Source: Dehalococcoidia bacterium (lineage in GTDB: Bacteria > Chloroflexota > Dehalococcoidia > Lucifugimonadales > UBA3495). Taken from it: a DNA stretch of 64,000 nucleotides. The notes under the pieces were generated by a model, which did no database searches, was not told the DNA's origin, and saw nothing but the letters and a program-made list of their open reading frames with translations. The stretch is from positions 45,286-109,285 of the forward strand of contig CBDCYT010000006.1 of the NCBI GenBank assembly GCA_965224325.1, written 5' to 3'. The number at the start of each line of letters is the position of its first letter. The stretch's first letter is position 1. The position numbers were made by a program, and so were the translations under genes. Below are positions 937-62,914 of this stretch, in pieces.

Positions 937-969
937 CCCGACTCCTAACTAAACTTCCGCATATGAGAG

Positions 970-1216
970 TGTCTCATAAAGCTGAGTCCTCCAGCATCCT
1001 ATCTTTCTGGATTCCCGCGAAAGCGGGAATGACGGGTTATTGAGTCTGGATTCCCGCTCCCCGATCGGGGTCGGGGACAAGCTTCGCGGGAATGACGGAT
1101 TAGTGAGCGGCATTCAATACTGGTTTAGCCGGTCAATAATTGGTATAGGCAGTTAATAATAGTAACCCGTCAGGTTGCGTCCGCCCAAAATCGTGAGCGG
1201 AGACTTCTGAGACGGG
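970..1216 (-). mobile_element. type I mosaic MITE-like element, copy A (reverse orientation)
   Basis: Reverse complement matches the left arm, one long plus one short hairpin module and the right arm of copies B, C and D; no clear target-site duplication found for this copy. Confidence 0.6.
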
Positions 1217-1597
1217 CTCCTATCCGGGCAGACTTGGGGACGGCGCCGGTCCATTCCCATCACGTGGTCAGGGATAGTTGTCCGCATGTCAGGCTTGTTA
1301 AACATTACGCAACGGGATTCAACTCGGCGGGCCTCGGGTCGGCGCCCAAAACGGAGGTGACGTATCATCCAAATCCGGACCTGCCGTCCACGAGCCTTGA
1401 ATGCCGTCTCCCGCGCCAACCGTCAATCGAGTTGCTATATGCCTTTCCATGATATCAAGGGTCTTGTTTAGGCCTGGAGGACTGTATTTTTCGCAACCCG
1501 TAAGAGGCCGTTGGCCGGAATTTGCCAACCCTGAAAATTTTGATGGAAGTATAGCATATGAGTGTCACGAGACTTCCGGGACCAAAAGGGCCGTGTT

Positions 1598-3166
1598 TCA
1601 TCTATGGGCCTCCGCCCTAAGCCCGTTTATGGCAATAGGCAGACCTTCCATCAAGTCCGAAGCCACCATTCCGGCGTCGCCCGAGCGGTCTCGCACTTCC
1701 TCGGCAACTTGCCCGTGAAGGTACACGCCGCAGGATGCCGCGTCATCAGGCGAGAGGCCCTGAGCCATTAGCCCCGTGATGATTCCGCTCAGCACGTCAC
1801 CGGTGCCTCCGGAGGCCAAACCGGGGTTGGCGAAGGGTGAGATTCGGACCATGCCGGCCGGTTCGGCGATTACGGTGTGGGCTCCCTTGAGAGCCACGGT
1901 AACTTTCCAGCGGGTGGCCCAATGTCGAGCGGCCCCGGTCCGGTCCTGCTGCACTTGGGTGGTCCCATGTCCTGTCAAAGTAGCCATTTCCCCGGGATGG
2001 GGAGTGAGTAGCGTCGGCCTACGCAAACGCTGCCACCAATCGGCTAGTTGAGACAAGTTGTTCAGGCCGTCGGCGTCTATTAACGTGGGCATGTTTGAGT
2101 CTTGGTCCAGAAGCAACCGCTCCAGGAAGCCCGCGGTCCCCGGCGACCATCCAAGACCGCATCCCACTAGCAGCGCGTCGCAGCGGTCCATGTACGGCGT
2201 GATTATGCCGGCGGCGTCGACATGAATGCGGCCGTCGGCGTCCTCGGGGAGCGGCAGGTGAATTACCTCGGTAAGCTTGCCGGCGGCGATGGCGTAGACA
2301 CTTTCGGGGGAAGCCAGGGTTACCAGCCCAGCTCCAACCCTCAAGGCGGCTTGGGAAGCTAAGAAGGCCGCACCTATATAGTTTCTCGATCCCGCCACTA
2401 CCAACGCGTGGCCAAAGGTGCCCTTGTGGGAATCCGCGGGCCGGTGTGGCAGGCGCCGCCCGGCCCCATCAGGGGTTAGAAGCTCCAGGTCAATTTCCTG
2501 CTCTTCCCTTAGATCCGGAGGGAGGCCAATGTCCGCTACCTCCAGCTTGCCCACACGGGCGGCTCCCGGGAAGGCCAGCAACCCGGCCTTGGGTCGTCCC
2601 AAGGCCAGGGTTAGGTCTGCGATGGGGCACACCGGGTCAACCTCTCCCGAATCGGCATTGAGCCCGGTGGGGAGGTCCAAAGCCAACAGCAAAGGCGGCC
2701 GGGGCTTCTCCCGGACTTCCCGCAAGCGCAAGAGAGCGTCTTTGACAAGCCCTTGCAACGGCCGCGCCCGCCCGGTGCCCAAGACGGCGTCTATGACCAG
2801 GTGGGAACGGGCCAGAAGCTTGTCCAGCCAGTCCAGACCGGGGTCGCCGGCGGATTGGACCACCTGGACGCCGTAGCTGCGGGCCAGGTCCATCTTGGGA
2901 TCGCCGGTGGGGCGGCCGGCGATTACGTAGGCGGTGACCTCGGCTCCCCAGCGCCGCAAATGACGAGCGCTAACCAGCCCGTCGGCGCCGTTGTTCCCCG
3001 GTCCAACCAAGACTAGGACCAGCGCTCCGGCAGCCCGTCCCATCATGCGGCGGGCAGCCTCGGCTACTGCCAACCCGGCGTTTTCCATGAGAGCGTCCGT
3101 GCTGACTCCCCGATGCTGGGAGGCCTGCTCCAGCATGGTCATTTGAGCCGCGGTGACCACCTTCAT
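1598..3166 (-). CDS. nnr: bifunctional NAD(P)H-hydrate repair enzyme (epimerase / ADP-dependent dehydratase)
   Basis: 522 aa; YjeF_N-like N-terminus (LVLVGPGNNGADGLV) and carbohydrate-kinase-like C-terminus (GGTGDVLSGIITGLMAQG); its ATG overlaps the acpS stop (ATGA). Confidence 0.9.
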   Translation of the reverse strand: MKVVTAAQMTMLEQASQHRGVSTDALMENAGLAVAEAARRMMGRAAGALVLVLVGPGNNGADGLVSARHLRRWGAEVTAYVIAGRPTGDPKMDLARSYGVQVVQSAGDPGLDWLDKLLARSHLVIDAVLGTGRARPLQGLVKDALLRLREVREKPRPPLLLALDLPTGLNADSGEVDPVCPIADLTLALGRPKAGLLAFPGAARVGKLEVADIGLPPDLREEQEIDLELLTPDGAGRRLPHRPADSHKGTFGHALVVAGSRNYIGAAFLASQAALRVGAGLVTLASPESVYAIAAGKLTEVIHLPLPEDADGRIHVDAAGIITPYMDRCDALLVGCGLGWSPGTAGFLERLLLDQDSNMPTLIDADGLNNLSQLADWWQRLRRPTLLTPHPGEMATLTGHGTTQVQQDRTGAARHWATRWKVTVALKGAHTVIAEPAGMVRISPFANPGLASGGTGDVLSGIITGLMAQGLSPDDAASCGVYLHGQVAEEVRDRSGDAGMVASDLMEGLPIAINGLRAEAHR

Positions 3167-7350: not shown

Positions 7351-8415
7351 CTATTTCTGAGGGTTTGAGGGAATGTCCTCTGCGGTGTAGGCCGCGGTCT
7401 GGCCCACGCTTTGGTCTTCCGCTGCCCCCAATACAGTCACAGCCGCGGCCCCGGCAATATAGACCGACGCCATAGCTGCCAGACCGGCGGCAACGACGAC
7501 CTTATGGATCCTATCACGCCCCAGTATCAACACCAGCGCCGTCAGGATGAGGCCTAATGCAACCCCGCCGGCTGCGAGATGGGCCGGCTCGGCCTGGTTC
7601 ACCAAAATGCCTTCTCGGTAGAAGATGTCCGCGAAAAACAAAATAATGGTGTTAAAGGCGCAACTGCCAAAGAGGCCGGCAACTCCCAGGTCCGCCGCGC
7701 CGATCCGAGCCGCGGCGATGGTGGACGTCGCCTCAGGCATGGTGGTTACCAGAGAGACGGCAATAATGCCCAGAGTGCTGGAAGCGACTCCGGTGATATC
7801 CGCTATTTCGTCTGTGCTCCAGGCCAGAAAAATTCCCGCCACTACAACACCCACCGAGGACAGACTAAACAGCAGCCAGGCTTTCCTCAAAGTGACGTCC
7901 TGAACGTCGCTCTCACCTTCGGTAGTCTGAGGGCGAGTCACGTAAATCACCCGCGTGGATGCCAAGAACATAACTAAGAGGATTGTCGAGGAGAGCCCTA
8001 TCTGCCAGGCTTGAACGTCCATCTTGACCGCAGCGAAGATCACTGCTGCGGCCGTCATGATGGCTGCCACCGCGATGAGGTAGCCTTGTTCCGGGGCGAT
8101 CTGCTGTAAAAACCGTTTGCCGCCAAAGGTCAGGGCCACCACAGCTAGGGTGAACATGTTGAGCATGTTGGCGCCTAGGACGTTTCCCACCGATAGGTCC
8201 GGGTTGGGTGGTTCCAGACGCACCGCCGAGATGTTGGTGGTAAGTTCGGGCAACGACGTGACCAAGGCCAGCAGCAGGCTTCCAACGAATACCCGGCCCC
8301 AGCCGGTCAAGCCGGCTATGGCGTTGCCGTATATGGCCAGCTTGTACCCAAAGAAAATTACCGCCATGGCGCTAACTGCGAATACAACGATCGCTATCGC
8401 TAGGTCAACGCCCAT
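7351..8415 (-). CDS. Ca2+/cation antiporter (CaCA, YrbG-like) membrane protein
   Basis: 354 aa, polytopic; two alpha-repeat-like motifs (GSLLLALVTSLPELTTNI and AVSLVTTMPEATSTI). Confidence 0.8.
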   Translation of the reverse strand: MGVDLAIAIVVFAVSAMAVIFFGYKLAIYGNAIAGLTGWGRVFVGSLLLALVTSLPELTTNISAVRLEPPNPDLSVGNVLGANMLNMFTLAVVALTFGGKRFLQQIAPEQGYLIAVAAIMTAAAVIFAAVKMDVQAWQIGLSSTILLVMFLASTRVIYVTRPQTTEGESDVQDVTLRKAWLLFSLSSVGVVVAGIFLAWSTDEIADITGVASSTLGIIAVSLVTTMPEATSTIAAARIGAADLGVAGLFGSCAFNTIILFFADIFYREGILVNQAEPAHLAAGGVALGLILTALVLILGRDRIHKVVVAAGLAAMASVYIAGAAAVTVLGAAEDQSVGQTAAYTAEDIPSNPQK

Positions 8416-13049: not shown

Positions 13050-13544
13050 GGGGCCTTTTCGTTTTCTGGGTTGGCTCGCATAGTTCCCGTCATTCCCGCG
13101 ACAGCCGTCATTCCAGCGCCTTCCGTCATTCCCGCGGAAGCGGGAATCCAGAGACCTTTGCGACAGGAAGGCTGGCATTGGACGGACAACCTTAGATTCC
13201 CGCTTTCGCGGGAATGACGGTAGGTGGGAACGACGGGACGGGGGAATGACGGAAGGTGGGAATGACGGTAGGTGGGAACGACGGGAGGGGGGAATGACGG
13301 AAGGCGGGCATGACGGGAGGGGGGGAACGACGGAAGGCTGGAATGACGGGAGCGGGGAACGACGGAAGGCAGGAACGACGGAAGGCAGGAACGACGGAAG
13401 GCAGGAATGACGGAACGCAGGAATAACAGAAGGCAGGAATGACGGGTAAGGCGGGAACGACGGAAGGCAGGAATGACGGAGGGCGGGAACGACGGAAGCT
13501 GGGAATGGCGGAAGGTGGGAATGACGGAAGAATCACCGGGCCCT
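13050..13544 (+). mobile_element. type II mosaic MITE-like element, copy a
   Basis: Flanked by an exact 12-bp direct repeat GGCGGGCCCCGC (13038-13049 and 13545-13556); same architecture as 43958-44244. Confidence 0.65.
13210..13530. repeat. ~20 tandem copies of a 16-nt unit (GGGAAYGACGGRAGGY)
   Basis: Read directly; the unit is the GGGAATGACGG half-site of the hairpin module. Confidence 0.85.
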
Positions 13545-13952
13545 GGCGGGCCCCGCCATCCATGAGCGTTCGTCGACAAGAAGCTTGCGCCTCCCAAGGG
13601 ATAATTGCTCCTTGACCGCCTACTATAGGGCCACTAAAATCGATTATAACCATCGAGATTCTTTTTGGACTTCGTCCAAGATGGCCGCGTTAACGGTGCC
13701 GTCGGGCTACCGGAATCGACATGGCCATCGAGGTCCTTTCTGTCGCTAGGACCCACTCGGAGTGGAGTTGGGGACTTTTTGGATGCAATCCGGGCTGAGG
13801 CCCGAGGGGCTAGACCTTCGTAATGAGGCGAACGGCATATAAAGACCCTCAACCGGCCGGTGGGGGACTTGAGTGCTCCTCCGTGCTCCGGCAATCTGGT
13901 GGTATGCGGTTACTGGCCGACTTGGATCTAAGCTTGAAGGAGGGATACACCA

Positions 13953-25146: not shown

Positions 25147-25334
25147 CCCTGCTCCCATAGGGTGAAACCGTCAGCGCAAAACGGGACTTCTGCGCCGTAA
25201 TCGAGAACGCCGGGATGGGATGTTCATAGGTGAGGCGCGGCGGCTACGGTAAAACACTCGACGAATTGATGGGAAACACGAAGGATGTCACCCTATTGCG
25301 CTTGGATGACAATCTGGGGGTCGGCGAAAAAGGC

Positions 25335-25620
25335 TGTCTCAGAAGTCTCCACTCACGATTTTGGGCGGACGCAACCGGACGGGTGACTATTATTAACCGC
25401 CTAAACCAGTATTGAATGCGGCTCAATAACCCGCCAGTGCCATGAAAATAGCCGTTTTCATATCCATACGAGGCTCATAGGGCCATCCGCAATTCCCGCG
25501 AGGCTTGTCCCCGACCCCGATCGGGGAGCGGGAATCCAGACTTAATAACCCGCCATTCCCGCGAAAGCGGGAATCCAGAAAGGTAGGATGATGGAGGACT
25601 CAGCTTTATGAGACAACCTC
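25335..25620 (+). mobile_element. type I mosaic MITE-like element, copy B
   Basis: Flanked by an exact 10-bp direct repeat CGAAAAAGGC (25325-25334 and 25621-25630); lies between argD and argG. Confidence 0.75.
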
Positions 25621-25763
25621 CGAAAAAGGCCGCCCCACGGAATTCGTAGGAGTTCAGAAAACCTAAGTCTAGCTTTGCATGGTCCGGCTGTCATCTGTCC
25701 GGGGTAGGGAGATCGTCCGAGCTTTCCACGTAGCTACATTCAAGCGGAGCTTTCAACAACAAA

Positions 25764-31622: not shown

Positions 31623-31943
31623 ATGCACGTGACACTTAGCGAGAAAGCAAAAGCCCACATTCGGGAGAAAGGCGGCGTTGCCGCCGTTGACCTGGTCTCT
31701 CTAGCCACTTGATCCGGGTCTAATGCTCGGGTATCGGTCGATACCCGCGTTAGCCGACGGAACCTCACGGCGTACCGGGCCGTCAAACTTGAGGATATTC
31801 AGCTAATGGTAATGCCGGGCTTGGTCCGGCGTACCGAGAATATGTATATCGACCTCAAGGAGTCCCTGTTTTCTCGCAACCTCGACGCTACGCTGGTGTT
31901 TGCCGGGGGTATCGTCCTGGGACGCCGGGTCCCTTTGTCCTAA
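31623..31943 (+). CDS. candidate selenoprotein (small IscA/HesB-like or CC/Se-motif-like protein), in-frame TGA at 31710-31712
   Basis: ATG 31623 (GGGGTGA upstream), then 29 codons, TGA, 76 more sense codons and TAA 31941. Read-through product: MHVTLSEKAKAHIREKGGVAAVDLVSLAT-U-SGSNARVSVDTRVSRRNLTAYRAVKLEDIQLMVMPGLVRRTENMYIDLKESLFSRNLDATLVFAGGIVLGRRVPLS. A SECIS-like hairpin starts 8 nt after the TGA. Confidence 0.6.
31720..31753 (+). promoter_or_regulatory. bacterial SECIS-like stem-loop
   Basis: Lower stem CTAATGC/GCGTTAG (one G-U pair), 5' bulge TC, upper stem GGGTATC/GATACCC, apical loop GGTC. Confidence 0.55.
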
Positions 31944-32270
31944 TCAAGGCTGTCCGGACGCGGCGCTCCCGACCTCGCGTGTCTCGCTGACTTAACCGGA
32001 CTTGGGGCTCCTGTCCTAATGGAGACCAATCCGGTGGCGCGTTCCGGACCCTTCGTGTCTCGCAGGCTTAATCAAACCCGAAGCGCTTGCCTCAGTCAAA
32101 GTTGTCCCTGCGCCTCGCTCCGGACCCTGCGGGTTCAACTGACTTAACGGGACCTGGAGCGCCTGTCTCAATCAAGGCTGTCCCGATGCGGCGCTCCGGA
32201 CCCTGCCTGTTAAGGTCACTTGACCTGACCCGGAGCACCTGTCTTAACGGAGACGCCGCGGGCTTACGGC
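31932..32270. repeat. ~4.4 degenerate tandem copies of a 72-80-nt unit
   Basis: Units start near 31932, 32010, 32090, 32162 and 32239; shared blocks CCTGTCYTAATCAAGGCTGTCC, GCGCTCCGGACCCTG, GACTTAAC. Confidence 0.6.
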
Positions 32271-33731: not shown

Positions 33732-33850
33732 CTCCGGGCTTGGGTTTCATTGGTCCTTGGCCCGACTACTGGGGAGTCCGGATGGGCCTCGGATCACCAT
33801 TCTACCAGCAAGCTGTCGTCGGCGGCTCCTGGGCCGCCGGATTTGCCTGG

Positions 33851-34039
33851 GCCATTTAGTTATCGCGACGACTCCTGTTTTCCCATGCACTTTGGGCTTG
33901 TCCAATGGCAGTGCAACATCAAGAACGCATGGATTCCCGCTTTCGCTGGAATGACGGGTGAGCCGCGGGAAAGGCGGGTGAGCGGTGGGCATGACGGGTG
34001 AGCGGCGGGTATGACCGGCGGCACACAATTAACACACCC
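33851..34039 (+). repeat. type III mosaic element, copy a
   Basis: Shares GCCMTTTAGTTATYGCGACGACTCCTGTTTTCCCATGCACTTTGGGYTTGTCCAATGGCAGTSCAACATCAAGAACGYATGGATTCCCGCTTTCGC... and ...GGCGGCACACAATTAAMACACCC with 34977-35385. Confidence 0.75.
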
Positions 34040-34343
34040 CGGGGTGATAGGCGGCCCAGGGGAGGAGGGCGCGAAGGAGGCGCTCCGGGCTGGGTTCCTG
34101 ACGGATAGAGGCGCAGCGTTCAAGGTAGCGGGCGGCAACGGAGAAGGTCGGGAGAAGGAAACCCGCGGCGGCGACCCGGCGAACGAAGGCCTGGGGAGAA
34201 GGTGTGGGCCGCTTATCCGCCTGGGCGCGAGCCCATGGGGTGCAGAGGTCGCCGGCCGCGCGTTGGACCATGAGCTGGGCGTAGGGCAGAGCCAATCTCC
34301 GGCGAAGGGAGCGGATGCGGGCCCGCAAAGAGCTAATGTTCAT
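34029..34343 (-). CDS. hypothetical 104-aa protein (cargo of the composite insertion)
   Basis: ATG 34343 with GAGGAGA 7 nt upstream; protein-like, GC3-rich sequence MNISSLRARIRSLRRRLALPYAQLMVQRAAGDL...; stop codon lies inside the end of type III copy a. Confidence 0.5.
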   Translation of the reverse strand: MNISSLRARIRSLRRRLALPYAQLMVQRAAGDLCTPWARAQADKRPTPSPQAFVRRVAAAGFLLPTFSVAARYLERCASIRQEPSPERLLRALLPWAAYHPGVC

Positions 34344-34410
34344 ACAGATTTCTCCTCGTGATTCGAGAGCCTCACCACGAACGGGGAAGGGCGCCCCGCG
34401 TGAGCGATGT

Positions 34411-34861
34411 TCATACGGATTTCTCCCGGGCGGTCCAAAGGGGCAGGGCGGCCTCCAGGGTCTGGACCTGGTCATGCAGGTCTTGGATTTCGGGATTTCG
34501 GGATTTCGCCAAATTTGGCGGAGTAATTGAGGACGGCGCGAATGGCGCGGAGGCGGATTTCCGGGTCTTGATTCTCCGGGTCTTGATTCTCGGGTTTTGA
34601 TTCTCGGGGAGGTTGCCGGGGTGAATGACAGCTTGAAAGGTGAGGCTTTGGAGGCAGCCTTTGGCGAGGTCGGCGGACTGGCGCTGCAGTTGGGCAAGTT
34701 GGTCGCGGAATTCGGGGTCCTGGAGTCAACGGTGCAAAGTGCGGCGGCCCACTCTGGAGAAGCGGGAGGCCTGGGCAATGGGCGGCGACGAGAATGGGGA
34801 GCGCCGATTGCTGGCGTGGAGAGAGGCCGGAGTTTTTTATTTCAGGGCCGTTGTGAGCCAT
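34411..34861 (-). pseudogene. decayed HTH-type (phage/plasmid-style) regulator gene
   Basis: The protein-like reading alternates between two frames. Segments are MAHNGPEIKNSGLSPRQQSALPILVAA | PIAQASRFSRVGRRTLHR-TGA-LQDPEFRDQLAQLQRQSADLAKGCLQSLTFQAVIHPGNLPENQ | PEIRLRAIRAVLNYSAKFGEI | QDLHDQVQTLEAALPLWTAREKSV. Two of the three frame switches coincide with tandem duplications. Confidence 0.5.
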
Positions 34862-34916: not shown

Positions 34917-34976
34917 GCGTAGGGAGTGGTCGCCGGAGGGGTCAAGGGCGAAGTGTCGGGAGTTTAGGACGAGGGG

Positions 34977-35385
34977 GCCCTTTAGTTATTGCGACGACTC
35001 CTGTTTTCCCATGCACTTTGGGTTTGTCCAATGGCAGTCCAACATCAAGAACGTATGGATTCCCGCTTTCGCGGGAAAGACGGGGGAGCGGCGGGATGGA
35101 TTCCCGCTCCCCGGTCGGGGCCGGGGACAAGCTTCACGGGAATGACGGGTGAGCGGCGGTATGGATCCCCGCTCCCCGATCGGGGCCGGGGACAAGCTTC
35201 GCGGGAAAGACGGGTGAGCGGCGGGATGGATTCCCGCTCCCTGATCGGGGCCGGGGACAAGCTTCGCGGGAAAGACGGGTGAGCGGCGGGATGGATTTTC
35301 GCTCTCTAATCGGGGCCGGGGACAAGCTTCGCGGGAAAGACGGGTGAGCGGCGGGTATGACGGGCGGCACACAATTAAAACACCC
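34977..35385 (+). repeat. type III mosaic element, copy b
   Basis: Same arms as 33851-34039 but with an expanded hairpin-module array. Confidence 0.75.
35098..35357 (+). repeat. 4 tandem copies (~64-nt period) of the long hairpin module plus linker
   Basis: GGATTCCCGCTCCCCGATCGGGGCCGGGGACAAGCTTCGCGGGAAAGACGGGTGAGCGGCGGGAT repeated with starts near 35098, 35163, 35227 and 35293. Confidence 0.85.
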
Positions 35386-35453
35386 TGCCGTATTTACCTG
35401 GCGCGCGGCGCGGGGCAAAGCGGATTTGGTTGCCAAACCGCCGTCAAAAGGTA

Positions 35454-43957: not shown

Positions 43958-44244
43958 AGGGCCTTTTCATTTTTGGGCTGGCTCGCATAGTTCCCTTCTC
44001 CGGGTTGACTCGCATGGTTGCCGTCTCTGGTTTGGCTCGCATGGTTCCCGTCATTCCCGCGAAAGCGGGAATCCACTACGCCCTGCCATATGACAAACTC
44101 CCGGGGCAAGGCGGTATGGATTCCCGCTTTCGCGGGAATGACGGAAGGCGAGAACGACGGAAGGCGGGAATGACGGAAGCGCGGGAATGACGGAAGCGCG
44201 GGAATGACGGAGGGCGGGAATGGAGGAGGAATGAAAAAGCCCTG
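43958..44244 (+). mobile_element. type II mosaic MITE-like element, copy b
   Basis: 10/11 direct repeat at the ends (ATAGCTGTGGC 43947-43957; ATAGCTGTAGC 44245-44255). Terminal inverted repeat AGGGCCTTTTCATT / AATGAAAAAGCCCT (13/14). Contains 3 x 27-nt units, two opposed hairpin modules and about 6 x 16-nt units (44134-44232). Confidence 0.7.
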
Positions 44245-47943: not shown

Positions 47944-48741
47944 CTAACTCAGACCAGCCAGGAACTCCGCCACCACCCCATGGAACTCCTCGGGCTTTTC
48001 GATCTGGGGGGAATGACCGCAGTGGTCGATGACCTTGAGCGTGGCGCGGGGAAGCGCTTGTTGGTACAACTCTCCACATTCAGCGGGAACGATGGCGTCT
48101 TGCTTGCCCCAAACGATCAGCGCCGGAGTGGTTACTTTTTGCAGATAATGGGGCAGGCTGGGGTTGTTCATGTAGGGGCGCCAGCACAGGCGGGAGGCCA
48201 TCTCCCGGTTGGAGTGGTCCAGGTTCATCTCTTCCTGAGTCATCTCCCGGGCATATTGTTCGTAGTTAGCGACCTGTGAAGGGTCGTAGAACCGTTGCTT
48301 TAAACGGGTGTCGGCCCCAACCATGAAAATCTCCGCAATCTCTCCCTGTTGAGGTTTGATGCCCACGGGATCGATCAGGACTAAACCCTTGAGTTGGTGA
48401 TCGTTCATGGCCGCCATTTCCGCCGAGACCCATCCTCCCATGGAGGAGCCCATTAGGATGAACTGGTCCAAGCCGAGGGTTCCAACCACTTGCTGGGCAA
48501 AGTGGGCGACGTCGGTAATGGTGCTAATCCATGCGGGATTGGGGGTGCCGTTGAATCCGGGCAATGACGGCGCGTACACCCGGTAGCTCTTGGCCAACTC
48601 TTCGTGATACGGCTGCCATCCCGGATTGCCCCCAGCTCCGTGAAGGTAGAGCAGCCCGGGCCCGGAGCCGCCGGAGAACATCTGTACTTGGGCGCCGCCC
48701 ACCGTTAGTGTGGACTCGTTAGCACTCTGGGTGGTTGTCAT
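47944..48741 (-). CDS. alpha/beta-fold hydrolase
   Basis: 265 aa; HGAGG oxyanion region, GSSMGG nucleophile elbow, C-terminal GH. Confidence 0.85.
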   Translation of the reverse strand: MTTTQSANESTLTVGGAQVQMFSGGSGPGLLYLHGAGGNPGWQPYHEELAKSYRVYAPSLPGFNGTPNPAWISTITDVAHFAQQVVGTLGLDQFILMGSSMGGWVSAEMAAMNDHQLKGLVLIDPVGIKPQQGEIAEIFMVGADTRLKQRFYDPSQVANYEQYAREMTQEEMNLDHSNREMASRLCWRPYMNNPSLPHYLQKVTTPALIVWGKQDAIVPAECGELYQQALPRATLKVIDHCGHSPQIEKPEEFHGVVAEFLAGLS

Positions 48742-49100
48742 GGAGTTAACCTCGTCTTCGTTATTAACCTTCTGCGTCTAATGGGTCGCTGGGGCGCCGC
48801 CGCTACCGGGCGCGCCCGCCCAAGCGCATATCCGCAGCAGTATGGCGCCTAACCGATTCTGGTGTAAAAGCATAATGTTGTCAAGCTGGGCTCGACGCCT
48901 GCCCGGGGCAGCGGTGTAGCATCCGTGTTAATACCCCGTTAATACCCCCGTTCGTTAGCAATGGCCGGAAGAATGCCTGGAAGCATGGCTGGGAAGGGCG
49001 CTAAACCGGTGCTGTATCTGCCGGTTGCCGGGGAGAGAATGTATTCGTGGCCGTGCCAGACGTTCCAACGACGGGCGGAACGATGGCCGCCTCCTCAAAG

Positions 49101-49291
49101 ACCCCGTCTCGGAAGTCTCCCCTCACGATTTGGGCGGGCCCAACCTGACGGGTTGCTAGTATTAACCGCCTAAACCGGTATTGAATGCGGCTTGATAACC
49201 CGTCATTCCCGCGAAGCTCGTCCCCGACCCCGACCGGGGAGCGGGAATCCAGAAAGGTAGGATCCTGGAGGACTCAGCTTTATGGGACAAG
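49101..49291 (+). mobile_element. type I mosaic MITE-like element, copy C (single long hairpin module)
   Basis: Flanked by an exact 10-bp direct repeat CTCCTCAAAG (49091-49100 and 49292-49301). Confidence 0.75.
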
Positions 49292-49352
49292 CTCCTCAAA
49301 GTCCTCGCCTTTGTTAAGAAGCGTCTAAGAGGCGATGGCCCTGCCGCACTTC

Positions 49353-50216
49353 TCAGCCGAGAAAATCGGCGGTCCAGCGGCTGTAGTCGCTCCGGCGGGT
49401 GACTTGGTCCATCAACTCCGAGGAGGCCAATTGGGGGCCAAGGTCTGAGGGAGCGACGCCGTCGCGCAGCGCCTTCAGGGTGTCATGCACCGCTTTCACG
49501 GCGGCCTGAAAGGGCAGGTGTCCCTGCAGGGCAATACGCACGCCTTGAGCCGCGAGAAATTGGGGGTCTCCCAGGTCCAGCCCCCCGCCTCCCAGCAGCA
49601 GGGGAATGTCAACTTCGGCGTGGACTGCCTGCAATTCCTCTTTGGTCCGCGCCCCAACAAGGAACATGGCGTCGACCCCGGCGTTTTGATACGCCCTAGC
49701 CCGTTTGACGGCCTCGGGTATCCCACCAGAGCGCAGGGCGCTGGTACGGCCTGCGATGACCAATGCGGGGTCTTGCCTGGCTGCCAGGGCCGCCTTCATC
49801 TTCCCGACGCCCTCCTCCAGGGAGATCAATTGCTCCTCGCCATTCGCTCCGAAACTTCGAGGCAGAACGGTGTCCTCGATGGTCAGCCCCGCTACGCCCG
49901 CAGTCTCCAACTCCTCCACGGTGCGCATCACGCTTAGGGCGTTGCCGTAGCCGTGGTCGGCGTCAACCATGAGACTCAGGTCCCCGGCCCGGCAGATGCG
50001 GTGAATCTGTTGAGCAAACTCGGTCAGCGTCAGGACTATTAGATCGGGGGCGCCCAGCACCGTACCGGAAGCGATGGAGCCGGCAAACATCCCCACTTCG
50101 AAGCCCAGGTCTTCAGCTATCCGGGCTGAAATGGGGTCGAACACCGAGGCTGGGTGAACGCACTGATGGCCCTCGATAATGGACCGGTACCGCTGGCGTC
50201 TCTGGGTTAAGTTCAT
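49353..50216 (-). CDS. isocitrate lyase / PEP mutase superfamily enzyme (oxaloacetate decarboxylase or methylisocitrate-lyase-like)
   Basis: 287 aa; VDADHGYGN, AGLTIEDT. Confidence 0.8.
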   Translation of the reverse strand: MNLTQRRQRYRSIIEGHQCVHPASVFDPISARIAEDLGFEVGMFAGSIASGTVLGAPDLIVLTLTEFAQQIHRICRAGDLSLMVDADHGYGNALSVMRTVEELETAGVAGLTIEDTVLPRSFGANGEEQLISLEEGVGKMKAALAARQDPALVIAGRTSALRSGGIPEAVKRARAYQNAGVDAMFLVGARTKEELQAVHAEVDIPLLLGGGGLDLGDPQFLAAQGVRIALQGHLPFQAAVKAVHDTLKALRDGVAPSDLGPQLASSELMDQVTRRSDYSRWTADFLG

Positions 50217-57163: not shown

Positions 57164-57884
57164 TCCTTTCATGCCTTCATCCTCGGGTCAGCCTCAGGAA
57201 ATCCCTCCCGTGGTCAGGATTGGGGCCGTTGTCGCGGCGGCAGGCAAAAGCAGCCGGATGGAAGGCGCCGACAAGACCTTTGCCCTAGTTCAGGGCGTTC
57301 CTCTCATCGCCCATACCCTTGACCGGTTGGAGAGTTTCCCCCCGGTCTCGGAAATCGCCCTGATGCTGGCCGAGACCAACCTGGAGCAGGGCAAGACACT
57401 GGTCCGGCAGCGCGGTTACGGCAAGGTTTCCCAGGTCCTCCTTGGAGGCGCCAGACGCCAGGACTCGGTGCGATGCGGAATCGAATCTCTGGCGCCTTGC
57501 GATTGGGTCATAATCCAGGACGGGGCCCGTCCCTGCCTGGACCACGCCATGCTGCGGCGGGGCCTTGAAGCCGCCCAGGAGTCAGGAGCCGCGGTGGCCG
57601 GAGTGCCGGTCAAGGACACCATAAAGGTTGTATCCTCCCAAGCCGTGGTGAGGGAAACTCCGCCGAGAGACCGGCTCTGGGCGGCCCAAACTCCTCAGAT
57701 ATTCCGTTACTCTCTGTTGGTGGACGCCCACCGGCGCTGCACCGAACCGGTGACCGACGATGCGGCTATGCTGGAAGGGCTGGGGCATCAGGTCAAGATG
57801 TTCCTGGGTTCCTACGAGAACCTTAAGGTGACTACACCCGAAGACCTGGCGGTAGCCGAGATCTTTCTCAGGTCCCGCACTTGA
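57156..57884 (+). CDS. ispD: 2-C-methyl-D-erythritol 4-phosphate cytidylyltransferase
   Basis: AVVAAAGKSSRM, IQDGARP motifs; start is either GTG 57156 (overlaps the yacL stop) or ATG 57171. Confidence 0.9.
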   Translation: MVDPFMPSSSGQPQEIPPVVRIGAVVAAAGKSSRMEGADKTFALVQGVPLIAHTLDRLESFPPVSEIALMLAETNLEQGKTLVRQRGYGKVSQVLLGGARRQDSVRCGIESLAPCDWVIIQDGARPCLDHAMLRRGLEAAQESGAAVAGVPVKDTIKVVSSQAVVRETPPRDRLWAAQTPQIFRYSLLVDAHRRCTEPVTDDAAMLEGLGHQVKMFLGSYENLKVTTPEDLAVAEIFLRSRT

Positions 57885-57885
57885 G

Positions 57886-58225
57886 CCCGTCTCAGAAGTC
57901 TCCACTCACGATTCTGTGCGGACGCAACCTGACGGGTGACTATTATTAACCGCCTAAGTCGGTATTGGCTGCCTGAACCAGTATTGAATGCGGCTCAATA
58001 ACCCGTCATTAACCCGTCATTCCCGCCTTCCGTCATTCCCGCGAAGCTCGTCCCCGACCCCGATCAGGGAGTGGGAATCCAGACTCAATAACCCGTCATT
58101 TCCGCGAAGCTCGTCCCCGATCCCGATCGGGGAGCGGGAATCCAGACTCAATAACCCGTCATTCCCGCGAAAGCGGGAATCCAGAAAGGTAGGGTGCTGG
58201 AGGACCCAGCTTTATGAGACAAGCT
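57886..58225 (+). mobile_element. type I mosaic MITE-like element, copy D (two long plus one short hairpin module)
   Basis: Flanked by an exact 8-bp direct repeat CACTTGAG (57878-57885 and 58226-58233); the left repeat contains the ispD stop codon. Confidence 0.8.
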
Positions 58226-58339
58226 CACTTGAGGCCCTTGGGTGCTCCTACGCCTGTAGCAAGCGGCAAGGCCAGGCGCGATGAACACAGGCATCTCCAA
58301 TTGGGCGTCTGTGACTAATAAATGTAGGCGGATAATTTC

Positions 58340-58840
58340 ATGCCCGAAAGCAAGCCCATGAACTTCAGAGTCGGCATCGGGTTCGACGCCCATCCTTTGG
58401 TCCCCGGCCGCCCATTGGTGTTGGGCGGAGTCACCATTCCCTACCATCTGGGCCTGGCAGGCTATAGCGATGGGGATGTGCTGGTCCACGCCGTCATGGA
58501 CGCTCTGTTGGGGGCTGCCGGACTGGAGGACAAAGGGTCGCATTTCCCCTCTGACGACCCTGATTACAAAGATATTTCCAGCCTGCTGCTGCTTTCCGTC
58601 ACGGCAGGCTTGGTTCAGGCCGCCGGTTGGCACATTTCCAACGTCGATGCTACAATGTTGGCGCAAAAGCCCAGGTTGGGGGCCTTCCTATGGACAATGC
58701 GCGGGCAGTTGGCCGCGGCCGTCGCCGCTCCTTCCGATCTCATTAACATAAAAGTTACCACCACCGACTACCTAGGGTTCATTGGGCGGGAAGAGGGCAT
58801 CGCCGCCGTAGCGGTGGCATCGCTGATCACAGGGATATGA
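58340..58840 (+). CDS. ispF: 2-C-methyl-D-erythritol 2,4-cyclodiphosphate synthase
   Basis: RVGIGFDAH...GHSDGDV-type motif (GYSDGDVLVHAVMDALLGA). Confidence 0.9.
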   Translation: MPESKPMNFRVGIGFDAHPLVPGRPLVLGGVTIPYHLGLAGYSDGDVLVHAVMDALLGAAGLEDKGSHFPSDDPDYKDISSLLLLSVTAGLVQAAGWHISNVDATMLAQKPRLGAFLWTMRGQLAAAVAAPSDLINIKVTTTDYLGFIGREEGIAAVAVASLITGI

Positions 58841-62779: not shown

Positions 62780-62826
62780 AGAGACCGGCTTGGGGGGGTT
62801 AAAGGGATGGAGCCTCGAGAAGACGG

Positions 62827-62914
62827 CGGAGAGGGCGGGATTCGAACCCGCGAGAAGCTGTTAACCTCTACGCGATTTCCAGTCGCGCCCGTTCGGCCGC
62901 TCCGGCACCTCTCC
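62827..62914 (-). tRNA. tRNA-Ser (anticodon GGA), long variable arm, CCA not encoded
   Basis: Hand-folded: acceptor GGAGAGG/CCTCTCC+G, anticodon arm CGCGA-CT GGA AA-TCGCG, T arm GCGGG-TTCGAAT-CCCGC. Confidence 0.9.

What the first reader, a model, noticed from the sequence alone, without database searches (positions are those of the whole stretch)
25325..25630. Type I mosaic MITE-like family: four copies, three with exact 8-10 bp target-site duplications
One non-coding element occurs at 970-1216 (-), 25335-25620 (+), 49101-49291 (+) and 57886-58225 (+). All copies share a ~105-nt left arm: CCGTCTCAGAAGTCTCCACTCACGATTTTGGGCGGACGCAACCTGACGGGTGACTATTATTAACCGCCTAAACCAGTATTGAATGCGGCTCAATAACCCGTCATTCCCGCG. 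All share a ~45-nt right arm: GGGAATCCAGAAAGGTAGGATGCTGGAGGACTCAGCTTTATGAGACA. The tips are imperfect inverted repeats (TGTCTCAGAAG versus CTTTATGAGACA). The middle is a variable cassette of 1-3 hairpin modules: copy C has 1, copies A and B have 2, and copy D has 3. Copy B also has an extra ~58-nt insert with an AT-rich hairpin (ATGAAAA..TTTTCAT). Exact direct repeats abut the ends of three copies: CGAAAAAGGC for B, CTCCTCAAAG for C and CACTTGAG for D. This is the signature of transposition, yet no transposase gene is in the window. I found no TSD for copy A, which sits 34 nt upstream of the HEAT-protein start codon.
Basis: seen in the sequence. Interest (0 to 1): 0.7.

Follow-up and report, generated by a model that had tools for sequence, protein, structure and literature searches.

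The report
Mobile repeat carrying known hairpin arrays
Four copies of a short non-coding repeat in a soil Chloroflexota genome look like old transposon-style insertions, and their variable middle is an array of a hairpin already known from Neisseria (the NTS/dRS3 motif cut by SsnA nucleases), so this is a new variant of known repeat types rather than a new kind of element.

Summary
Four copies share an arm of about 100-120 nt and an arm of about 45 nt around 1-3 hairpin modules. Copies B, C and D carry exact 10-, 10- and 8-nt flanking direct repeats (chance about 0.0005-0.004 each). A fifth copy lies just outside the window.

An insertion origin is supported. Copy B splits a HicB-like pseudogene; removing the element plus one repeat copy restores one reading frame colinear with the intact gene of a relative.

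The short module fits the published 28-nt Neisseria Transformation Sequence (dRS3 core), the single-strand DNA target of SsnA GIY-YIG nucleases. The long module is the same hairpin with an enlarged loop. This hairpin occurs across many phyla. The arms were found nowhere else.

All sampled strains carry the tested copies (A-E) with unchanged flanks. The ispD-ispF copy holds 1 to 10 long units of 63 nt.

No transposase, ssnA or matching insertion sequence was found in about 100 kb of this species.

Verdict: a lineage-specific MITE-like element carrying an NTS array. It appears fixed in the strains sampled and now varies in unit number. Moderate interest.

The parts
965..1219 (-). Copy A: left arm, 1 long NTS-type module (1046-1097), 1 short NTS hairpin with an inverted loop TTTC (1007-1034), right arm. 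It lies between nnr/yjeF (1598-3166, -) and a HEAT-repeat gene (13-936, -), 29-34 nt upstream of the latter's ATG depending on where the right tip is placed. No flanking duplication.
   Evidence: present in all strain contigs L139-L141 and L146-L149
25335..25620 (+). Copy B: left arm, 58-nt AT-rich insert (25434-25491), long module (25492-25539), short NTS (25551-25578, one mismatch to the consensus), right arm. It lies between argD and argG, inside a HicB-like pseudogene.
25325..25334 (+). Left copy of the 10-nt flanking duplication CGAAAAAGGC of copy B. The right copy is at 25621-25630.
25179..25666 (+). HicB-like pseudogene split by copy B. The N-terminal part is at 25179-25334 and has an internal TAG. 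The C-terminal part is at 25621-25666 (...EFVGVQKT*). The two parts are in different frames as they stand, and in one frame once 296 nt (element plus one repeat copy) are removed.
   Evidence: relative L018 has an intact 69-aa ORF, with only a weak HicB_lk/UPF0150 match, followed by what I read from its translation as a HicA-like remnant, not scanned
49101..49294 (+). Copy C: left arm, one long module (49201-49252), right arm, no short hairpin. It lies between an alpha/beta-hydrolase gene (47944-48741, -) and a PEP-mutase-family gene (49353-50216, -), so it is antisense to both.
49091..49100 (+). Left copy of the 10-nt flanking duplication CTCCTCAAAG of copy C. The right copy is at 49292-49301; its first three bases can also be read as the element's CTC tip.
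57886..58226 (+). Copy D: left arm with extra half-sites, two long modules (58031-58082, 58094-58145), one short hairpin that matches the NTS consensus perfectly (58157-58184), right arm. It lies between ispD and ispF.
57878..57885 (+). Left copy of the 8-nt flanking duplication CACTTGAG of copy D; it contains the ispD stop codon (57882-57884). The right copy is at 58226-58233.
1554..1582 (-). 29-nt relic resembling the left terminus (GTCCCGGAAGTCTC...), followed by CACTCATATGC, which resembles copy A's right junction. It lies just after the nnr stop codon and is conserved in the strains.
   Evidence: not followed further

Best explanation
The copies belong to a lineage-specific, non-autonomous mobile element (MITE-like). 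It has family-specific arms with imperfect inverted tips (GAGCCCGTCTCAGAAG ... CTTTATGAGACA-NN-CTC). At a fixed internal position it carries a tandem array of NTS/dRS3-type hairpins.

Shown:
- At least three copies sit between different exact 8-10-nt direct repeats.
- One copy splits a recognisable gene remnant.
- The copies differ from each other by 7-15%, whereas the same copy in different strains looks nearly identical (not quantified). The insertions therefore appear old, and they were present in every strain sampled.
- The internal array changes at a fixed locus by whole 63-nt units (1 to 10 long units at ispD-ispF).
- Sub-modules are shared between copies: B's AT-rich piece turns up in one strain's D copy.
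- The hairpin matches the published consensus of the ssDNA substrate of SsnA GIY-YIG nucleases.

Inferred:
- Insertion was by a transposase that makes staggered cuts. That enzyme has not been identified.
- The progenitor element acquired an NTS hairpin before it spread.
- The array now expands and contracts by slippage or unequal recombination between hairpin units, possibly helped by nicking of exposed single strands.
- If the genome encodes an SsnA-type nuclease or a RAYT, the arrays are its chromosomal targets. They would then mark these intergenic sites for cleavage or recombination of single-stranded DNA, as proposed for Neisseria.
For: Anatomy and copies.

Flanking duplications: 10, 10 and 8 nt exact, against P = 0.0005-0.0044 per copy in the window's own sequence. 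Each word is unique to its two positions.

Insertion into a gene: relative L018 has a HicB-like ORF between argD and argG. The window has its remnants on both sides of copy B, and they are in one frame only after removing the element plus one repeat (pairwise E = 7e-7).

Fixation and variable unit number: D: 13 contigs, 1-10 long units, identical flanks, in contigs of 9-22x coverage; C; A; B; E.

Hairpin identity:
- 58157-58184 equals CGTCATTCCCGCGMAVGCGGGAATCYRG. There are six matches at one mismatch or fewer in the window against 0 expected. The consensus and the SsnA biochemistry are in PMC11893778.
- The long module keeps both NTS halves around a 28-nt loop. The paper reports that loop extensions are tolerated.
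- As ssDNA the modules fold at -9 and -15 kcal/mol (z = -4.8 and -3.6); the arms do not fold specially.

Arms are lineage-specific: 0 hits in GTDB species representatives, JGI metagenomes (two patterns) and IMG/VR.

The hairpin is not lineage-specific: at least 120 stretches across many phyla. Two of them carry a GIY-YIG gene next to or between hairpins.

NTS doublets elsewhere carry no flanking duplication.
Against: - No autonomous element with these termini was found. No transposase is in the window, and the insertion sequences in strain-specific islands have other ends.
- No unoccupied allele or presence/absence polymorphism was seen. The nearest relatives are too distant (IspF 81%, ArgG 88%) to give a clean empty site.
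- The duplication length is not constant (8, 10, 10; weak or absent in E and A), and its distance from the recognisable termini varies by 0-5 nt. That is untidy for a classical DDE transposase.
- No ssnA or RAYT gene was found in the roughly 100 kb of this species that could be read. The link to a nuclease in this organism is therefore untested.
Confidence: 0.6

Rival explanations
1. A NIME/BIME-type mosaic spread by a hairpin-specific single-strand enzyme (SsnA-like GIY-YIG nuclease or RAYT), not by a transposase with staggered cuts. On this reading the arms are just one of many 'RS'-type spacer families between NTS hairpins. The flanking repeats come from microhomology at the joints, or from target sites that resemble the abutted element tips (CTC...GAG).
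For: - The same hairpin builds at least two other mosaic families in the window, each with its own flanking sequences.
- Arrays differ in unit number between strains at fixed positions, exactly as described for Neisseria NIME arrays.
- The flanking repeats overlap the GAG/CTC tips and vary in length.
- The published NTS-ssnA-NTS layout has been likened to an insertion sequence.
Against: - 22 NTS doublets from other phyla show no flanking duplication.
- No flanking repeat was apparent on reading the ends of the two copies of the second mosaic family; this was not tested with a script, and the third family was not checked.
- IS200/RAYT-type single-strand transposition makes no duplications (established knowledge).
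- Exact 10-nt repeats are long for microhomology.
- The arms have their own inverted tips.
Confidence: 0.25
2. A family of structured RNA genes or cis-regulatory leader/terminator elements, kept for a function in the neighbouring operons (arg, isp).
For: Three of the four window copies are co-oriented with both flanking genes, and they sit inside or next to operons. The hairpins are stable.
Against: - Copy C is antisense to both neighbours.
- No Rfam family was matched at gathering or relaxed threshold.
- The whole element folds no better than shuffled sequence (z = -0.9 and 0.0).
- No promoter- or terminator-like sites were found.
- Unit number varies 1-10 at one locus between strains.
- One copy disrupts a gene remnant.
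- Across 120 loci the hairpin shows no orientation bias relative to genes.
Confidence: 0.05
3. Chance similarity or an assembly artefact of long-read metagenomes.
For: All related contigs come from metagenome assemblies, some at only 2-4x coverage.
Against: - The same elements, flanks and duplications recur in independent samples and assemblers, including short-read contigs that break inside the element.
- Unit-number differences are seen between contigs of 9-22x coverage.
- Chance is excluded.
Confidence: 0.01

Closest known systems
NTS / dRS3 hairpin repeats (Ssn-related motifs) and their SsnA GIY-YIG single-strand nucleases (Chenal et al., Nat Commun 2025, PMC11893778)
   Same: - The short module equals the 28-nt NTS consensus, including the oriented flanks CGTC... 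and ...TCCAG.
- The motif is strongly over-represented (6 matches and 35 half-sites in 64 kb, against 0 and 0.8 expected).
- It is mostly intergenic.
- The same hairpin lies next to small GIY-YIG genes in two of the retrieved genomes.
   Different: - The host is a Chloroflexota soil bacterium, which the paper's main text does not mention.
- No ssnA was found in the DNA available.
- Most modules here are a long-loop version (52 nt) repeated in tandem every 63 nt.
- The arrays are enclosed in arms that carry flanking duplications.
Neisserial intergenic mosaic elements (NIMEs: dRS3 hairpins separating RS units; Bentley et al. 2007, PMC1797815)
   Same: - A mosaic of one conserved hairpin (ATTCCC-N8-GGGAAT) with family-specific sequences.
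- Arrays sit at fixed positions but differ in repeat number between strains.
- Several families occur in one genome.
   Different: - NIMEs were reported as Neisseria-specific.
- Here the hairpins lie inside a unit bounded by inverted tips and direct repeats, rather than bounding the RS units.
- I know of no report of flanking duplications for NIMEs (from memory).
MITEs, e.g. the Correia element of Neisseria
   Same: Short, non-coding and multi-copy (5 copies in about 74 kb), with imperfect terminal inverted repeats, flanking duplications that differ between copies, and insertion into a gene remnant.
   Different: - No cognate transposase is known.
- Duplication length is not fixed and the junctions are ragged.
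- No insertion polymorphism was seen.
- There is an internal hypervariable hairpin array.
REP/BIME and REPIN-RAYT systems (Bertels and Rainey, bioRxiv 10.1101/2021.07.10.451892, treat the Neisseria hairpin as a REPIN with a Group 2 RAYT)
   Same: The building block is a palindromic extragenic hairpin. Copies are old, diverged and vertically inherited. Some BIMEs are tandem arrays of variable length (from memory).
   Different: The modules are in tandem direct orientation, not inverted doublets. Flanking duplications are present, whereas IS200-type mobility makes none. No RAYT was found in the DNA available.

Membership tests
MITE (non-autonomous DNA transposon) | Short (under about 600 bp in most alleles), non-coding, several dispersed copies | tested here: met
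   Elements of about 190-340 nt in the window; 5 copies in about 74 kb. No credible ORF: the ORFs overlapping the elements are mechanical translations of the repeats.
MITE (non-autonomous DNA transposon) | Terminal inverted repeats | tested here: met
   GAGCCCGTCTCAGAAG against the reverse complement of the right end, GAGCTTGTCTCATAAAG. The tips are conserved in 4-5 copies. The repeat is imperfect.
MITE (non-autonomous DNA transposon) | Target-site duplications that differ between copies | tested here: met
   Three of five copies have exact 8-10-nt repeats (P = 0.0005-0.004 each); E is weak and A has none. Length and distance to the tips are not constant.
MITE (non-autonomous DNA transposon) | Empty sites or insertion polymorphism in relatives | tested here: inconclusive
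   All strains are occupied. The 81-88% relatives have different spacers. Only the indirect HicB colinearity supports insertion. A search for an intact allele found nothing.
MITE (non-autonomous DNA transposon) | Cognate autonomous element with the same termini | tested here: not met
   None was found in the window or in about 40 kb of extra DNA from this species. The insertion sequences seen there have other ends. The arms are absent from three public collections. The whole genome could not be scanned.
NTS / Ssn-related motif | Sequence fits CGTCATTCCCGCGMAVGCGGGAATCYRG, allowing one mismatch (the paper's own criterion) | tested here: met
   Six matches in the window, one of them perfect inside copy D, against 0 expected.
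NTS / Ssn-related motif | An ssnA (small single-domain GIY-YIG) gene in the genome, often flanked by the motif | tested here: inconclusive
   Absent from the window and all loci of this species that were read. Present next to the hairpin in L054 and L104. The rest of the genome could not be reached.
NTS / Ssn-related motif | Strand-specific cleavage of the motif as single-stranded DNA by the cognate nuclease | not testable with these tools
   This needs biochemistry. Only the ssDNA hairpin stability was computed.
NIME (Neisseria) | dRS3 hairpins (ATTCCC-N8-GGGAAT) separating RS units, in arrays whose length differs between strains | tested here: met
   The hairpin fits the consensus. Arrays hold 1-10 units at one locus. 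The family was defined for Neisseria only, so this is a likeness in architecture, not membership by descent.
REPIN-RAYT | Inverted doublets of the REP hairpin plus a RAYT gene | tested here: not met
   Modules within Type I elements are all in direct orientation. No Y1 transposase was found among the window's proteins. Convergent NTS pairs do occur in another family of the window (13124+/13192-, 44049+/44116-).

The most novel reading that the evidence does not exclude
NTS/Ssn-type hairpin arrays can travel as cargo of, or be mobilised together with, a duplication-generating element. In this Chloroflexota lineage they would then act as hypervariable chromosomal targets of a single-strand nuclease that shape recombination around core operons. 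In the strongest form, the arms are the ends recognised by a not-yet-described GIY-YIG-dependent insertion mechanism that leaves variable 4-10-nt duplications overlapping the CTC/GAG tips.
Probability: 0.12. Interest if true: 0.75.

Novelty: new variant of a known kind. Interest (0 to 1): 0.42.

Why it matters
The origin and spread of NTS/dRS3 hairpins is an open point. The 2025 Ssn paper noted only that NTS-ssnA-NTS looks like an insertion sequence.

This case offers three things:
- A natural instance, far from Neisseria, in which an NTS array sits inside a unit that carries the marks of insertion.
- A contrast with plain NTS doublets, which carry no such marks.
- A set of closely related strains in which array length can be read directly.

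It also has a practical side. These elements break short-read assemblies and produce spurious ORFs in MAG annotation.

Tried and rejected
- Exact look-ups of IspD, ArgG and the FAD-oxidase failed because of start-codon or strain differences.
- A search for an intact HicB allele, using the reconstructed protein as query, found nothing.
- Rfam gave only two tRNAs at gathering threshold and chance-level hits at relaxed threshold.
- Whole-element RNA folds were no better than shuffled sequence.
- Promoter and terminator scans were empty.
- Clustering the genes next to the hairpin in 120 genomes gave no strongly recurrent family; the only relevant pair was the two GIY-YIG genes.
- The hairpin shows no orientation bias relative to genes.
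- Insertion sequences in strain-specific islands were tested as candidate partners and rejected because their ends differ.
- The ORF at 34029-34778, between two copies of another mosaic family, was checked as a possible associated gene. It looks like a spurious low-complexity reading frame.
- I considered an alternative framing of the ends: a full 11-nt inverted repeat with 4-6-nt duplications. It requires unlikely coincidences in B and D, so I kept the 8-10-nt reading but report the ambiguity.
- The termini (C/T)GTCTC recall IS4-family ends from memory. This was not tested and is not claimed.

Full report
**1. The observation**

- The left arm starts with (GAG)CCCGTCTCAGAAGTCTCC... and the right arm ends with ...CAGCTTTATGAGACA-NN-CTC. 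Between them are one to three hairpin modules.
- The repeat finder recovers the same pairs at 83-95% identity.
- Between copies, left arms are 85-93% identical and right arms 89-91%. The left arm itself holds one or two copies of a ~20-nt unit.
- The three flanking direct repeats are exact, and each word occurs only at its two flanking positions in the 64-kb window.
- Random pairs of 20-nt windows at the same spacing in this window share a word of at least 8 nt in 0.44% of trials, and of at least 10 nt in 0.05%. Three such repeats among four copies is therefore not chance. Copy A has none.

**2. Context and organism**

All copies are intergenic.
- A lies between nnr/yjeF and a HEAT-repeat gene.
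- B lies between argD and argG.
- C lies between an alpha/beta-hydrolase gene and a PEP-mutase-family gene, antisense to both.
- D lies between ispD and ispF. Its left repeat contains the ispD stop codon.

The best protein matches are named Chloroflexi, Chloroflexota, Dehalococcoidia or SAR202. G+C is about 60%. The window holds ordinary metabolic genes and no transposase.

**3. Strain comparisons**

Contigs encoding identical or 98%-identical IspF come from many independent metagenome assemblies.
- All 13 contigs carry copy D with the same ends and the same CACTTGAG repeats. The number of 63-nt long modules ranges from 1 to 10, and the differences hold between contigs of 9-22x coverage.
- Copy C is present and unchanged in every contig that covers it.
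- Copy A is present in all contigs covering it.
- Copy B is present in the one other contig found.
- A fifth copy, E, lies just beyond the left end of the window. It also varies in unit number, with about 2-5 long units.
- Short-read contigs end inside the elements.
- One strain's D copy contains part of the AT-rich piece otherwise seen only in copy B. This points to exchange between copies.

The family therefore appears fixed in the strains sampled. What changes today is the length of the arrays.

**4. Evidence for insertion**

The nearest other genome (ArgG 88%, IspF 81%, a 3.1-Mb circular contig) has no such elements at either site.
- Between argD and argG it has a 69-aa HicB-like ORF, with only a weak Pfam match. 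The sequence after it looked to me like a HicA-like remnant when read by eye; I did not scan it.
- The window has remnants of that ORF on both sides of copy B. As they stand, the two parts are in different frames.
- After removing the element and one copy of CGAAAAAGGC (296 nt), they form one frame colinear with the relative's protein...GKTLDELM...EFVGVQKT* against ...GKTLDDLM...EFIGVQKIEI*.
- This is good, though indirect, evidence that the element inserted there.
- A clean empty allele was not found. Further look-ups were exhausted.

**5. What the modules are**

The short hairpin CGTCATTCCCGCGAAAGCGGGAATCCAG fits the dRS3 consensus ATTCCC-N8-GGGAAT (PMC1797815). It also fits, base for base, the 28-nt Neisseria Transformation Sequence CGTCATTCCCGCGMAVGCGGGAATCYRG (PMC11893778).

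That paper shows three things:
- SsnA, a small single-domain GIY-YIG nuclease, binds and cuts this motif only as single-stranded DNA, and only in one orientation.
- Similar motif-nuclease pairs occur across bacteria.
- The loop can be lengthened without loss of cleavage.

In the window:
- There are six NTS matches at one mismatch or fewer (0 expected) and 35 half-sites (0.8 expected).
- The long module keeps both NTS halves around a 28-nt loop that has its own small palindrome.
- Both forms fold well as ssDNA.

- The hits span Proteobacteria, Bacteroidota, Chloroflexota, Nitrospirota, Planctomycetota, candidate-phyla-radiation lineages, a Nanoarchaeota bin and Neisseria.
- The loop is strongly oriented.
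- Two hits have a GIY-YIG gene next to or between hairpins.
- A Gemmatimonadota contig has a long-loop version 89% identical to the one here.

A second published view treats the Neisseria hairpin as a REPIN served by a RAYT.

**6. Arms against hairpins**

The arms are absent from GTDB representatives, JGI metagenomes (two patterns) and IMG/VR. They have no similarity to the 120 hairpin-bearing loci. Twenty-two convergent NTS doublets from other phyla show no flanking duplication. The duplications thus belong to the arm-bounded unit, not to the hairpin.

The junctions are not tidy.
- All five copies end in GAGACA-NN-CTC. Three start with GAGCCCGTCTC outright; D does so only if the last three bases of its flanking repeat are counted as part of the element.
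- The exact repeats overlap these tips by 0-5 nt.
- They measure 10, 10 and 8 nt, with a weak 7-nt repeat in E and none in A.

I keep the reading of 8-10-nt duplications. The alternative (4-6 nt plus chance identity with the tips) needs unlikely coincidences. The raggedness leaves room for a mechanism other than a classical transposase.

**7. What it is not**

- Not a known RNA family.
- Not globally structured.
- Not a promoter or terminator by simple scans.
- Not oriented with genes, either here or across phyla.
- Insertion sequences found in strain-specific islands next to tRNA-Ser have unrelated ends.

**8. Verdict**

This is a lineage-specific MITE-like element whose interior is an array of the already described NTS/dRS3 hairpin. 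It inserted long ago, appears fixed in the strains sampled, and now evolves by unit-number change.

It is a new variant of known kinds (MITE, NIME, Ssn-related motif), not a new category. The mobilising enzyme, and the presence of a cognate nuclease in this genome, remain untested.

Noticed in passing
window 13065-13560 and 43972-44240: A second mosaic family built from the same hairpin: a convergent pair of NTS hairpins (13124+/13192-, 44049+/44116-), followed by a tandem run of the 16-nt half-site unit GGGAATGACGGAAGGC. There are about 20 units at the first site and about 5 at the second. The leader repeats TCTGGGTTGGCTCGCATAGTTCC.
   Followed up: partly
window 33849-34040 and 34975-35392: A third family with its own arms (GGCCATTTAGTTATCGCGACGACTCC ... 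GGCGGCACACAATTAACACACCC). It carries zero versus four 65-nt long-loop NTS units, in the opposite orientation. The two copies are direct repeats 1126 nt apart. Only a low-complexity, probably spurious ORF (34029-34778) lies between them. No flanking duplication was apparent on reading the ends (not tested with a script).
   Followed up: partly
genome loci L019-L138: The 25-nt NTS core occurs in species representatives of very many phyla, often as convergent doublets 66-140 nt long with a palindromic centre. The GTCATT side lies nearer the neighbouring gene (median 36-61 nt, against 113-130 nt on the other side). Upstream arrays of half-sites recur in Dehalococcoidia, Rhodoferax, Caulobacterales, Elusimicrobia and others.
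   Followed up: partly
L104:4363-4881 and L054:6117-6428: Small GIY-YIG genes (108 and 94 aa, PF01541) lie between or next to NTS hairpins in a Sphingorhabdus and a Methylotenera genome. This is the published NTS-ssnA-NTS layout.
   Followed up: yes
L102:1641-1692 (Gemmatimonadota MAG): A long-loop NTS 89% identical over 53 nt to the 63-nt module of this window. The enlarged-loop form is therefore also shared across phyla.
   Followed up: no
window 1007-1034 (copy A): The short hairpin of copy A has the loop TTTC instead of GAAA, while stem and flanks keep their orientation. This looks like a loop inversion, as expected from template switching within a palindrome. The same form is present in all strains.
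   Followed up: no
window 1554-1582: A 29-nt relic resembling the left terminus, followed by a sequence like copy A's right junction, just downstream of the nnr stop codon. It may be the remnant of an earlier copy or of a rearrangement, and could explain why copy A has no flanking duplication.
   Followed up: no
L146:13352-13886 (about 3 kb beyond the left end of the window): A fifth Type I copy, between a dCTP-deaminase gene and a methyltransferase gene. It has about 2-5 long units depending on the strain, and only a weak flanking repeat, CT(T/C)GTAT.
   Followed up: partly
window 62825-62914 and beyond (L153, L155, L156 from about 14500): Strains diverge completely just past tRNA-Ser(GGA). 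Different islands there carry a DDE_Tnp_1-type transposase fragment, an IS110-type transposase with PIN toxin-antitoxin genes, or a 441-aa DDE_Tnp_1_4 transposase with 31-nt inverted ends. This looks like a tRNA-linked integration hotspot.
   Followed up: partly
L146-L148:1535-3605 versus window 7351-8415 and L149: Three strains have about 960 nt extra in the Na+/Ca2+-exchanger gene region. The gene is called as 356-aa and 206-aa pieces with a 125-aa ORF between them. The window and L149 have a single 354-aa gene.
   Followed up: no
window 31936-32254: An unrelated 76-nt tandem repeat (three copies, 69-77% identical, TGTCCTAATCAAGGCTGTCC...) in a 767-nt intergenic gap.
   Followed up: no
window 58148-58666 (-) and similar: Mechanical ORFs across the arrays translate the hairpin into peptides such as ...WIPAFAGMTG. 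From memory, peptides of this kind (AFAGMT, RFRGND, VIPAKAGIQ) are common in hypothetical proteins of MAG annotations and probably stem from this hairpin family.
   Followed up: no
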